Positions 2,626 to 5,235 of a stretch of 64,000 bases of DNA are shown here, piece after piece. Numbering within the stretch: the first letter of the stretch is position 1; every line of letters starts with the position of its first letter. Under the pieces are notes generated by a model. It worked only from the letters and a program-made list of their open reading frames with translations. It was not told the origin of the DNA and searched no databases. A program made the position numbers and the translations under genes. Source of the DNA: the human T2T-CHM13v2.0 reference genome, Homo sapiens; NCBI RefSeq assembly GCF_009914755.1, contig NC_060936.1; one strand, 5' to 3'.

Positions 2626-3705
2626 GGGTCCCCCAGCAGTGCCAGCCCACCGGCGCTGCGCTCGATTTCTCGCCGGGCCTTAGCTGCCTTCCCACGGGGC
2701 AGGGCTCGGGACCTGCAGCCCGCCATGCCTGAGCCTTCCCACCCCCTCTGTGGCCTCCTGTGCGGACGAGCCTCCCCGACGAATGCCGCCCCCTGCTCCA
2801 CGGCGCCCAGTCCCATCGACCACCCAAGAGCTAAGGAATGCGAGCACATGGCGCGGGACTGGCAGGCAGCTCCACCTGCAGCACCGGTGCGTGATCCACT
2901 AGGTGAAGCCAGCTGGGCTCCTGAGTCTGGTGGGCACTTGGAGAACCTTTATGTCTAGCTCAGGGATTGTAAATACACCAATCGGCACTCTGTATCTAGC
3001 TCAAGGTTTGTAAATACACCAGTCAGCACCCTGTGTTTAGCTCAAGGTTTGTGAGTGCACCAATTGACACTCTTTATCTAGCTGCTCTGGTGGGGCCTTG
3101 GAGAATCTGTGTGTGGAAACTCTGTATCTAACTAATCTGATGGGCACGTGGAGAACATTTGTATCTGGCTCAGGGATTGTAAACGCACCAATCAGCACCC
3201 TGACAAAACAGGCCACTCGGCTCTACCAATCAGCAGGATGTGGGTGGGGCCAGATAAGAGAATAAAAGCAGGCTGCCCAAGCCCGCATTGGCAACCAGCT
3301 TGGGTGTCCTTTCAAACTGTTGAAGCTTTGTTGTTTCACTCTTTGCAATAAATCTTGCTACTGCTCACTTTTTATGTCCACGTTGCTTTTATGAGCTGTA
3401 ACTCTCACCGCAAAGGTCTGCAGCTTCATTTTTGAGCCCAGCGAGACTACGAGGCCACGAGGAGGAACGAACGACTCCTGACGCGCTGCCTTAAGAGCTG
3501 CGACACTCACGGCGGAAGTCTGCAGCTTCACTCCTGAGCCAGCAAGACCACGAACCCACCAGAAGGAAAACACTCCGAACGCATCTGAACATCAGAAGGG
3601 AGGGACTCCAGACGCACCACTTTAAGGGCTGTAACACTCACTGCGAGGGTGTGCGGCTTCATTCTTGAAGTCAGTGAGACCAAGAACCCACCAATTCCAG
3701 ACACA
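2626..3705 (+). mobile_element. LTR12 (ERV9) solo LTR, 5'-truncated, inserted in an Alu
   Basis: tgtctagctcagggattgtaaatacaccaatc tandem units, CCAAT boxes, AATAAAAG at ~3261 and a terminal ccaattccagacaca. An Alu 5' end lies to the left (~2574-2625) and the Alu resumes at 3706. About 350 bp of LTR 5' end is missing compared with the copy at 21300. Confidence 0.95.
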
Positions 3706-3728
3706 TGGCCACCATTGTGAAACTCCAT
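3642..3728 (-). CDS. SLC2A14: SLC2A14 (GLUT14) long-isoform N-terminal coding exon, 29 aa MEFHNGGHVSGIGGFLVSLTSRMKPHTLA
   Basis: The translation matches the GLUT14-L N-terminus as I recall it. The exon ends at a phase-0 GCA|GTGAGT donor (intron starts at 3641). An antisense-Alu acceptor TTTTTAATAG|AG lies just upstream (3732-3729). Confidence 0.88.
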
Positions 3729-5235
3729 CTCTATTAAAAATACAAAAAAATTAGCTGGGTGTGCTGGTGCATGCCTGTAGTCCCAGCTACCTGGGAGGCT
3801 GAGGCAGGAGAATGAACCCAGGACACAGAGGTTGCAGTGAGCTGAGATTGTGCCACTGCACTCCCGCCTGGGTGACAGAGTGACTCCATCTTAAAAAAAA
3901 ATAAAAAATAAACCTTGGAATACAGACATAGCTCATTCAATTGATTGACATATAAACTAAATGACAAACATACTGTTTATGGAGAAACCTGTGAGCCACA
4001 TCTTTTGGCTTTGGAAGCCAAAAGCCTAACTTCCTTTTATTTCAGATGAAAACTTATCTCCCTATATCAACCATCTTCCTTTTTTTTCTTTTTTTCTTTT
4101 TTTTTTGAGACGGAGTCTCACTGTTGCCCAGGCTGGGGTGCAGTGGCATGATCTTGGCTCACTGCAACCTCCACCACCCGGGTTCAAGCGATTCTCCCGC
4201 GTCAGCCTCCCGAGTAGCTGGCACTACAGGCATGTGCCACCATGCCTGGCTAATTTTTTGTGTTTTTTAGTAGAGCCAGGGTTTCACTGTGGTGCCCAGG
4301 ATGGTCTTGATCTCCTAACCTCGTGATCTGCACGCCTCGGCCTCACAAAGTGCTGGGATTACAGGTGTCAGCCCCCGCGCCCGGCCACCACATTGTTTTG
4401 ATTACAGCTTACTGCTGAATTTTGAGAGTGCTTTACATTCTCTAGAAACAAATCCTTTGGGATATGTGGTTTGCAAATATCTTCTCTGAATGTAGCCTAT
4501 CTTTTCACCATATACATGGGGCCTTTTGCAGAGCAAAAGCTTTTCATTTTGATAAGCCCAAATTTATCAATTTTTCCTCTTGTGGTTTGAGCTTTTAACG
4601 TCTTTTGTTGTTGTTGTTATTGTTGTTTGAGATGGAGTCTCGCTCTGTCGCCCAGGCTGAGTGCAGTGGTGCAATCTCAGCTCACTGCAACCTCCGCCTC
4701 CCGGATTGAAGCCATTCTCCTGCCTCAGCCTTCCAACTAGCTGGGACTGCAGGTGCGCACCACCATGCCTGGCTAATTTTTTGTATTTTTAGTAGAGACG
4801 GGGTTTCACCATGTTAGCCAGGATGGTCTCGATCTCCGGACCTCATCATCCGCCGGCCTCGGCCTCCCAAAGTGTTGGGATTACAGGCGTGAGCCACCGT
4901 GCCCGGCTGAGCTTTTACTGTTAAGTCTCTTTTACTATAACACAGGCATGCTCACTTGTTTATGTAATGAACGTGGCTGCTTAAATGCTATGACGTTGGA
5001 ACTGAGTAGCTGTAGTGGTGACTGAGCCGCTATGGCCCACAAAGCCTCTATCTGCACAAAAAGAGTCAGCCGACCCAGGCTCTAATCAGATAAGCCTCCA
5101 TGCTCTTAGGGTATTTTCATATGCCTTTCCCTCTATCTGAAACACTCTTTCTTCAGATCTCCTCATGGCCGGCTCTTTATGTCACTCTGGTTTCTGCTCA
5201 AATTTACCGTAAAGAGGCCTTCCCTGACCACACTA

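What the first reader, a model, noticed from the sequence alone, without database searches (positions are those of the whole stretch)
3642..3732. The GLUT14-L N-terminus is encoded across an Alu-LTR12 junction
Seen: the acceptor, ATG and MEFHNGG come from an antisense Alu (3706-3732). VSGIGG...PHTLA and the donor come from the antisense LTR12 3' end (3642-3705). The exon exists only because the LTR landed inside the Alu, so a coding exon was made from two transposons. The same LTR could also drive + strand transcription antisense to this exon.
Basis: partly seen in the sequence, partly recalled or inferred. Interest (0 to 1): 0.7.

Follow-up and report, generated by a model that had tools for sequence, protein, structure and literature searches.

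The report
SLC2A14 coding exon from two transposons
An alternative first coding exon of the testis glucose-transporter gene SLC2A14 is stitched together from an Alu and a retroviral LTR12, a tidy but not unusual example of mobile DNA becoming protein-coding sequence.

Summary
On the minus strand, the annotated exon 3730→3642 (89 nt) has an AG acceptor at 3732-3731, an ATG at 3728-3726 and a GTGAGT donor at 3641-3636. It encodes 29 codons and joins exon 2 in phase 0.

A dispersed repeat of about 1.43 kb ends exactly at 3705. It carries the LTR12 hallmarks. The window copy (2623-3705, + strand) lacks its first ~350 bp. Positions 3706-3912 are the 3' part of a + strand Alu, and codon 8 straddles the junction.

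The signals were latent in both elements:
- 38 of 38 other LTR12 copies have GTGAGT at the same antisense place, and 37 of 38 keep that frame open.
- 97 of 102 neighbouring Alus have the AG, and 24 of 102 have ATG at that position.

The whole block of Alus plus LTR is absent from the paralogous site upstream of SLC2A3, so the exon arose after the duplication.

"Landed inside the Alu" cannot be proven, because the 5' junction is deleted. The idea that the LTR acts as a + strand promoter has no support.

No paper in the searched library links SLC2A14 with LTR12. I rate this a new member of a known kind, of moderate interest.

The parts
3642..3730 (-). Alternative 5' coding exon of SLC2A14 (89 nt: 2 nt of leader plus 29 codons, phase 0 at the 3' end)
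   Evidence: The hub RefSeq table lists 3642-3730 as an exon of other SLC2A14 transcripts.
3731..3750 (-). T-rich tract and AG acceptor (AG at 3732-3731), from the T-rich stretch inside the antisense Alu, not its terminal T-run
   Evidence: 97 of 102 neighbouring Alu copies have AG at this position.
3726..3728 (-). Start codon inside the Alu part. The same position in other Alus reads ACG (42), ACA (25) or ATG (24) of 102
   Evidence: This is the pattern expected from CpG decay (inference).
3706..3912 (+). 3' part of an Alu (sense on the + strand), with an A-rich tail at about 3893-3912
   Evidence: Rfam Metazoa_SRP match at 3754-3892 on the + strand, E 1.6e-10. Alignments to many Alus.
2575..2622 (+). 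5' ~45-50 nt of an Alu, same orientation. Colinear with the 3' part except for about 39 missing nt
   Evidence: Against one reference Alu, 2582-2622 aligns to 155288-155328 and 3706-3912 aligns to 155368-155578.
2623..3705 (+). Solo LTR of the LTR12 (ERV9) family, 5'-truncated. It aligns to positions 348-1429 of a 1,429-bp relative at 89.9% identity
3636..3641 (-). Splice donor GTGAGT in the antisense U5 end of the LTR
   Evidence: GTGAGT is at the equivalent place in 38 of 38 other copies.
3660..3662 (-). Second in-frame ATG (codon 23) inside the LTR part, a possible alternative start
   Evidence: The Met codon is kept in the translations of all 38 other copies.
2954..3083 (+). U3 tandem repeats, period 41, 3.2 copies, carrying CCAAT and the GATA-type motif
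   Evidence: The motifs are as described in PMC11853044, section 5.
3261..3292 (+). LTR core promoter remnant: AATAAAA (3261-3267) and a degenerate start-site motif (3281-3292), at about 70% of the full LTR length
   Evidence: The motif is exact in 5 of 9 relatives and differs at 2 of 12 positions here.
10132..10206 (-). First coding exon of the RefSeq-selected short form (ATG plus 5 codons), the alternative to the exon studied here
   Evidence: Hub table..

Best explanation
The element is a RefSeq-annotated alternative 5' coding exon of SLC2A14, assembled from two retroelements that both lie antisense to the gene.

What each element supplies:
- An Alu gives the T-rich tract, the AG acceptor and the start codon. 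The ATG sits at a CpG position that reads ATG in about a quarter of nearby Alus.
- The last 64 nt of a 5'-truncated LTR12 solo LTR give 21 1/3 codons of open frame and a GTGAGT donor.

What the exon does: spliced in phase 0 to exon 2, it replaces the 6-codon start of the short form with a 29-residue tail. That tail lies wholly in front of the sugar-transporter domain.

How it arose: the acceptor, donor and open frame were already latent in the two families. The exon needed only the juxtaposition, the ATG and a compatible phase. The whole Alu-plus-LTR block is absent from the paralogous site on the SLC2A3 side, so the exon arose after the segmental duplication.

Shown: the anatomy, the family-wide latency, the empty paralogous site and the phase.

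Inferred: that the LTR entered an existing Alu and a later deletion of about 390 bp removed the 5' junction; that the form is a minor, testis-expressed isoform; and that the tail has no demonstrated selected function.
For: Exon, splice sites, ATG and phase:
- Searches give the exon, its splice sites and the ATG.
- Exon 2 was found about 30.6 kb downstream in the gene's direction, at window -26917..-27009, preceded by AG.
- Exon 2 matches Sugar_tr profile positions 2-23 and exon 3 matches positions 28-75. The 29-residue peptide matches 0 Pfam families.

LTR identity:
- 4,555 first-look candidates genome-wide; 40 were scored, and 36 of 39 non-self long matches end at 3705/3706.
- 8 of 9 fetched relatives are 1,420-1,431 bp long and run TG...CA. 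Matching 4-bp flanks are seen in 7 as printed and in the eighth after a one-base shift.
- 41-bp repeats with CCAAT and the GATA-type motif, AATAAAA, and the start-site motif at about 70% of the length, matching the description in PMC11853044 section 5.

Latency of the signals:
- 38 of 38 other copies have GTGAGT at the same place, and 37 of 38 have the frame open.
- 97 of 102 Alus have the AG, and 24 of 102 have ATG.

Empty paralogous site:
- Window 1587-1948 aligns to 134053-133693 at 91.5%.
- Window 3891 onward aligns from 133700.
- Positions 1954 to about 3912 are therefore absent from the paralog.

Start-codon context:
- If one of the two exons starting at 13181 is joined directly, there is no upstream ATG, and the context has G at -3 and G at +4.

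Reviews cite Wu and Freeze 2002 for short and long forms, both detected in testis (passages read).
Against: - No call shows that the long form is translated in vivo. No paper in the library contains the first seven residues of the peptide.
- The primary GLUT14 papers are not held.
- RefSeq's selected transcript is the short form (hub table).
- The LTR's 5' junction is deleted, so no target-site duplication can confirm insertion into one Alu.
- The 38 LTR copies were the best-scoring matches to this copy, not a random sample, so 38 of 38 may overstate the family-wide figure.
- The LTR12 subfamily and the Alu subfamily were not determined, because no repeat library was available.
- Which upstream exons actually precede this exon in RefSeq transcripts is not given in the hub table.
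Confidence: 0.85

Rival explanations
1. The two-transposon tail has a selected, hominoid-specific role, for example in sorting or regulating the transporter in male germ cells. This would be true gain of function rather than tolerated noise.
For: - The frame, the ATG and a good start context are intact.
- The tail sits in front of the transporter core and does not disturb it.
- It contains a moderately hydrophobic stretch: residues 9-19 have a mean Kyte-Doolittle value of 1.86 over 11 residues.
- Reviews state that both forms are detected in testis.
Against: - The same frame is open in 37 of 38 unrelated LTR12 copies, so openness here is no sign of selection.
- RefSeq selects the short form (hub table).
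- No conservation, proteomic or functional data could be obtained.
- Exonization is known to be more frequent in duplicated genes under relaxed constraint (PMC2231382, abstract and passages read).
Confidence: 0.12
2. Translation of the long-form mRNA starts mainly at the second in-frame ATG (codon 23, 3662-3660). The expressed tail would then be 7 residues long and encoded entirely by the LTR12.
For: - An in-frame ATG lies at codon 23, with A at -3.
- It is kept in all 38 other copies.
- The resulting tail length would resemble the 6-codon start of the short form.
Against: - The first ATG has G at -3 and G at +4 whichever annotated exon precedes it, except the short-form coding exon.
- Scanning ribosomes would normally use it first (general knowledge).
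Confidence: 0.12
3. The Alu pieces on the two sides of the LTR come from different Alus, or from a rearrangement. The LTR then did not insert into one Alu, and the junction in the exon was made by deletion or recombination.
For: - About 39 nt of Alu and about 350 bp of LTR are missing at the 5' side.
- No target-site duplication can be checked.
Against: - The two Alu pieces have the same orientation and are colinear on a single reference Alu, with only a 39-nt gap.
- The junction inside the exon coincides with the exact LTR 3' terminus shared by 36 of 39 genome copies, as integration would give.
- A single deletion of about 390 bp explains the rest.
Confidence: 0.1
4. The LTR12 acts as a + strand promoter. 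Its transcripts would run antisense through the exon and modulate its use.
For: - The LTR is in sense on the + strand. It keeps AATAAAA, four CCAAT boxes in U3 and the 41-bp repeats.
- LTR12 elements are known promoters, including in male germ cells (PMC11853044, passages read).
Against: - The start-site inverted repeat is broken in this copy, while 8 of 9 relatives keep it.
- The first ~350 bp are missing.
- The hub table lists a silencer at 3013-3213 and no + strand model.
- No expression data could be consulted.
Confidence: 0.08

Closest known systems
Alu exonization (antisense Alu exons in primate genes)
   Same: The Alu lies antisense to the gene. A T-rich run of the Alu serves as the pyrimidine tract in front of an AG that most Alus already carry (97 of 102 here). 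The exon is alternative and lineage-specific.
   Different: Only the 5' 25 nt of the exon are Alu, and the donor is not in the Alu. The exon is a first coding exon whose start codon is itself Alu-derived. That classic Alu exons use both sites inside the Alu is my recall, not a call.
LTR12C-derived splice acceptor in CHM (isoform b)
   Same: A splice site inside an LTR12 changes the encoded protein. It is the one LTR12 splice-site case named in the review PMC11853044, section 10, read whole.
   Different: CHM uses an acceptor said to have been acquired after fixation, and it truncates the protein. Here the site is a donor already present family-wide (38 of 38), the LTR is antisense to the gene, and the result is an N-terminal extension. 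[quoted passage not shown]
[quoted passage not shown]
   Same: A transposon-derived alternative exon is present in one copy of a primate segmental duplicate and not in the other.
   Different: In TIF-IA the Alu predates the duplication and a point mutation activates it in one copy. Here the elements themselves are absent from the paralogous site. SLC2A14 does not occur in that paper's main text, and its supplementary list could not be opened.
LTR12 promoters of germ-cell isoforms (for example the p63 isoform named in PMC11853044)
   Same: The same repeat family is involved, the tissue is also male germ line or testis, and a new N-terminal protein isoform results (passage read).
   Different: There the LTR acts in sense as promoter and first exon. 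Here it is antisense, internal to the transcript, and contributes coding sequence and a donor rather than a start site.

Membership tests
LTR12 (ERV9 long terminal repeat) | Dispersed in thousands of copies with shared, sharp ends (TG...CA) and short target-site duplications | tested here: met
   For the family:
- 4,555 first-look candidates.
- 8 of 9 relatives run TG...CA, are 1,420-1,431 bp long and have 4-bp duplications.

For the window copy, only the 3' CA end is present. The 5' end and the duplication are missing.
LTR12 (ERV9 long terminal repeat) | U3 tandem repeats of about 41 nt carrying CCAAT and the GATA-type motif (PMC11853044, section 5) | tested here: met
   - TRF finds period 41 x 3.2 copies at 2954-3083.
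- There are 4 CCAAT in U3 and one exact copy of the 13-nt GATA-type motif at 2989.
- The 7-nt G-rich motif named in the review is absent; 6-nt versions occur twice.
LTR12 (ERV9 long terminal repeat) | AATAAAA about 30 nt upstream of a start-site motif with an inverted repeat, at about 70% of the LTR length | tested here: inconclusive
   - AATAAAA is at 3261.
- The motif position (3281-3292) corresponds to about 70% of a 1,429-bp relative.
- The motif is exact in 5 of 9 relatives, and the inverted repeat is intact in 8 of 9.
- In the window copy 2 of 12 positions differ.
LTR12 (ERV9 long terminal repeat) | U5 repeats of about 72 bp | tested here: inconclusive
   - TRF reports none.
- BLAST shows internal repeats in 3389-3693 at about 70-71% identity.
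- Three donor-like sites recur on the minus strand.
Alu (7SL-derived primate SINE) | 7SL-related sequence with an A-rich 3' tail, in very many copies | tested here: met
   - Metazoa_SRP match at 3754-3892 on the + strand: E 1.6e-10, 47.9 bits, below the gathering score of 70 as expected for an Alu monomer.
- A-rich tail at about 3893-3912.
- 102 neighbouring copies align.
Classic Alu exon | Both splice sites lie inside the antisense Alu | tested here: not met
   The acceptor is in the Alu (3732-3731). The donor lies 64 nt inside the LTR12 (3641-3636).
SLC2A / Sugar_tr transporter gene (host gene) | Downstream exons encode the Sugar_tr domain in frame with this exon | tested here: met
   - Exon 2 matches Sugar_tr profile positions 2-23 (E 2.7e-4, 20.4 bits, just under the 22.3-bit cut-off for this 31-residue piece).
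- Exon 3 matches positions 28-75 (E 5.3e-8).
- The junction is in phase 0.

The most novel reading that the evidence does not exclude
The antisense 3' end of LTR12 may be a ready-made 'exon back half': an open frame plus a consensus donor, carried by thousands of copies. On this reading the SLC2A14 long form is the first recognised case in which it has been captured into a curated protein-coding isoform. That would give hominoids a transporter N-terminus born entirely from two transposons, possibly with a germ-cell-specific role, and would contradict the published view that antisense ERV9 elements do not contribute splice sites.
Probability: 0.15. Interest if true: 0.6.

Novelty: new member of a known kind. 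Interest (0 to 1): 0.4.

Why it matters
This is a clean, base-resolved example of how coding sequence can be born from junk. Two unrelated retroelements each carried half of the needed signals, and their chance juxtaposition in a relaxed gene duplicate produced a curated alternative protein start.

It has three practical consequences:
- It is an exception to the review statement that antisense ERV9/LTR12 elements are not known to contribute splice sites.
- Peptides from the LTR part are not locus-specific, because 37 of 38 other copies encode almost the same residues. Only the junction-spanning N-terminal peptide can prove this isoform in proteomics.
- The consensus donor in antisense LTR12 may matter for cryptic splicing wherever these LTRs sit in introns.

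It does not change what is known about glucose transport.

Tried and rejected
- Dating in primates: no primate genomes are held. I obtained only a relative order, namely that the block is absent from the paralogous site. The literature adds bounds: the duplication is present in chimpanzee and rhesus (PMC3995011), and ERV9 was active about 30 to 6 million years ago (PMC11853044).
- Target-site duplication of the LTR: not testable, because the 5' end of the LTR and about 39 nt of Alu are missing.
- 72-bp U5 repeats: not found by TRF.
- Pfam on the 29-residue peptide: 0 families.
- Literature:
  - 0 papers hold SLC2A14 together with LTR12.
  - 0 papers hold the first seven residues of the peptide.
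  - 7 papers hold SLC2A14 and Alu. I read passages of the two most relevant, and neither concerns this exon.
  - 3 papers hold 'GLUT14-L'; I read passages of one (PMC12347752), and it only restates the two forms.
  - Two broader searches were dominated by papers without the gene name.
- Papers not held: the primary GLUT14 papers.
- Considered and rejected: that the two LTR12 copies in the window (2623-3705 and 21300-22676) are the two ends of one provirus. They lie 17.6 kb apart, with SLC2A14 exons and paralogous unique sequence between them.
- Not attempted: splice-site scoring with a trained model (none installed), and structure or complex prediction, because the spliced protein is a joined sequence.
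Full report
**1. The observation**

Read on the minus strand, the sequence shows an exon running from 3730 down to 3642. It is preceded by a T-rich tract ending in AG (3732-3731) and followed by GTGAGT (3641-3636). This matches the RefSeq exon 3642-3730 in the hub table.

The ATG at 3728-3726 opens a frame of 29 codons up to the donor: MEFHNGGHVSGIGGFLVSLTSRMKPHTLA. All nine annotated SLC2A14 exon intervals in the window were checked. Every 3' end is followed by GT, and every 5' end that is not a transcript start is preceded by AG.

Exon 2 lies outside the window at about -26917 to -27009 and is preceded by AG. The junction is in phase 0. Exon 2 matches positions 2-23 of the Pfam Sugar_tr profile and exon 3 matches positions 28-75, while the 29-residue peptide matches nothing. 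The exon therefore adds a tail in front of the transporter core.

The RefSeq-selected short form instead starts in exon 10132-10206 with an ATG plus five codons (hub table).

That this exon is the start of the form called GLUT14-L is my recall of the database entry. No call confirmed it.

**2. The two repeats**

*The LTR.* A search of the window's own genome with 2600-3760 gave 4,555 first-look candidates, of which 40 were scored. Of the 39 non-self long matches, 36 end at query 1106-1107, which is window 3705-3706. One each ends at 1094, 1104 and 1149. The matches start at window 2623-2628.

Nine relatives were fetched:
- Eight are 1,420-1,431 bp long, run from TG to CA, and are flanked by 4-bp direct duplications. 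Seven show this as printed and the eighth after a one-base shift.
- The ninth is 5'-truncated.
- These are the marks of a retroviral solo LTR.

The window copy aligns to positions 348-1429 of a 1,429-bp relative at 89.9% identity, so it lacks the first ~350 bp.

The LTR12 label was tested against the description in the review PMC11853044 (sections 5 and 10 read whole, other passages by search):
- 41-bp tandem repeats at 2954-3083, carrying CCAAT and the GATA-type motif.
- AATAAAA at 3261.
- The start-site motif at about 70% of the full length. It is exact in 5 of 9 relatives but differs at 2 of 12 positions in the window copy.
- The 72-bp U5 repeats were not recovered by TRF.

The LTR is in sense on the + strand, and therefore antisense to SLC2A14.

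*The Alu.* Positions 3706-3912 are Alu on the + strand:
- Rfam gives a sub-threshold 7SL match at 3754-3892 (+), E 1.6e-10.
- There is an A-rich tail.
- 102 nearby Alus align over the acceptor region.

On the other side of the LTR, 2575-2622 is the first ~45-50 nt of an Alu in the same orientation. Against one reference Alu, the left piece covers 155288-155328 and the right piece covers 155368-155578. About 39 nt of Alu are therefore missing.

*The junction.* The 3705/3706 boundary falls inside codon 8.

**3. How the exon works and what it needed**

The signals were already latent in both repeat families.
- At the place equivalent to 3641-3636, 38 of 38 other LTR12 copies read GTGAGT. In 37 of 38 the same frame is open, without indels, and encodes nearly the same 21 residues. 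These 38 were the best matches to this copy, not a random sample.
- Among 102 neighbouring Alus, 97 have AG at the acceptor position. The start-codon position reads ACG in 42, ACA in 25 and ATG in 24. This is the pattern expected from decay of a CpG (inference).

The exon therefore needed only three things: the juxtaposition of the two elements, the common C-to-T change that makes the ATG, and a total length that keeps phase 0.

The start context depends on the preceding exon:
- If either exon starting at 13181 is joined directly, there is no upstream ATG, and the context has G at -3 and G at +4.
- If the short-form exon 10132-10206 precedes, its ATG runs out of frame into a stop after 25 codons. 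The two coding starts should therefore be mutually exclusive.

A second in-frame ATG lies at codon 23, inside the LTR part. Residues 9-19 are moderately hydrophobic (mean 1.86 over 11 residues). I judge that too short for a membrane span.

**4. History**

The window lies in a known two-unit tandem duplication: NANOG/SLC2A14 and NANOGP1/SLC2A3. According to PMC3995011 (passages read), the duplication is present in chimpanzee and rhesus, and the two units have very different Alu content.

My comparison of 214 kb found the paralog of this stretch, in inverted orientation, upstream of SLC2A3:
- Window -253..1071 aligns to 135702..134380 at 91.9%.
- Window 1587..1948 aligns to 134053..133693 at 91.5%.
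- The next unique sequence, from about 3913, continues directly at about 133690.

The whole block from 1954 to about 3912 (two Alus, the split Alu and the LTR) is absent there, at an A-rich site. The simplest reading is gain on the SLC2A14 side after the duplication. Loss on the other side cannot be excluded without outgroups.

The most economical account of the local structure is this. An ERV9 integrated into the third Alu and was reduced to a solo LTR. A later deletion of about 390 bp then removed the LTR's first ~350 bp together with the adjoining Alu sequence. This account is inferred. No target-site duplication remains to test it.

The review dates ERV9 activity to about 30 to 6 million years ago, and notes that many LTR12C copies are shared with chimpanzee and gorilla but absent from macaques. 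The exon is therefore probably ape-specific (inference).

**5.

The LTR keeps AATAAAA and CCAAT boxes. Against the claim:
- Its start-site inverted repeat, called essential in the review, is broken, while 8 of 9 relatives keep it.
- Its 5' ~350 bp are missing.
- The hub table lists a silencer at 3013-3213 inside the U3, and no + strand model.

I could not consult expression data, so the claim is unsupported rather than refuted.

**6. Comparison with what is known**

Exonization of antisense Alus, LTR-derived exons, and a bias of such exons toward duplicated genes (PMC2231382, abstract and passages) are all established. This is a new instance, not a new kind.

Two points make it more than routine:
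- One short coding exon, including its start codon, is split between two unrelated elements.
[quoted passage not shown] It names only one LTR12 splice site, an acceptor in CHM.

Literature searches:
- 0 papers hold SLC2A14 together with LTR12.
- 0 papers hold the first seven residues of the peptide.
- 7 papers hold SLC2A14 and Alu. In the two most relevant, whose passages I read, nothing concerns this exon.
- The library lacks the primary GLUT14 papers.
- The supplementary tables of the exonization study could not be opened, so an earlier listing there cannot be excluded.

The origin would be visible to anyone who views a repeat track over the gene.

**7. Verdict**

- Novelty: new member of a known kind.
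- Interest: moderate, 0.4.
- Whether the tail is translated in vivo, and whether it does anything, remains open.

Noticed in passing
window 21300-22676 (+): A second, full-length LTR12 copy lies in the SLC2A14 intron between the distal first exon (31186-31386) and the exons at 13181. It has 84% identity to a 1,429-bp relative and is also antisense to the gene. It overlaps the two RefSeq 'enhancer' records 21112-21697 and 21698-22282 in the hub table.
   Followed up: partly
window 10132-10206 (-) and about 154,000-154,250 outside the window (fetched loci L024/L025): The short-form first coding exon has a paralog upstream of SLC2A3, in direct orientation. Its ATG, five codons and GTGAGT donor are identical (flanks at 91% identity). 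Unlike the exon studied here, this exon therefore predates the duplication. Whether SLC2A3 ever uses its copy was not examined.
   Followed up: partly
outside the window, 75645-77095 in window coordinates (locus L017): The stretch holding the annotated 5' end of SLC2A3 (76362) has 0 BLAST matches (E <= 1e-3) anywhere in the SLC2A14 locus from -49999 to 32000. Paralogy of the gene bodies stops near 74690 / -26285 at high identity. SLC2A14 seems to lack a counterpart of the SLC2A3 first exon and proximal promoter, which may be why it relies on far-upstream starts.
   Followed up: partly
window about -16692..-15618 and 111880..112951 (outside the window): This is the most similar paralogous block, at 98.4% identity. 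By approximate coordinate offset it coincides with the main recombination breakpoint of the 129-kb deletion/duplication variant described in PMC3995011. By inference, the deletion allele removes the exon studied here together with SLC2A3. It would leave a hybrid gene whose upstream region has the empty site.
   Followed up: no
window 11110-11328 and 11445-11549 (-): Two non-coding SLC2A14 exons lie inside the span of the MYL9 processed pseudogene (11090-11936, +) on the opposite strand (hub table; splice sites). This is another case of recruited junk in this gene's 5' region.
   Followed up: no
window 3389-3693 (minus strand reading): The antisense U5 of the LTR carries three donor-like sites, near 3641, 3511 and 3407, within internally repeated segments of about 70% identity. 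Only the one nearest the LTR end is annotated as used.
   Followed up: no
window 3815-3874, 2457-2516, 2154-2213, 4125-4184, 3752-3803, 4201-4252: There are sub-threshold Rfam matches to the mir-3135 and mir-1268 families inside the Alus. All are well below the gathering scores, and they probably only reflect the Alu origin of those families.
   Followed up: no
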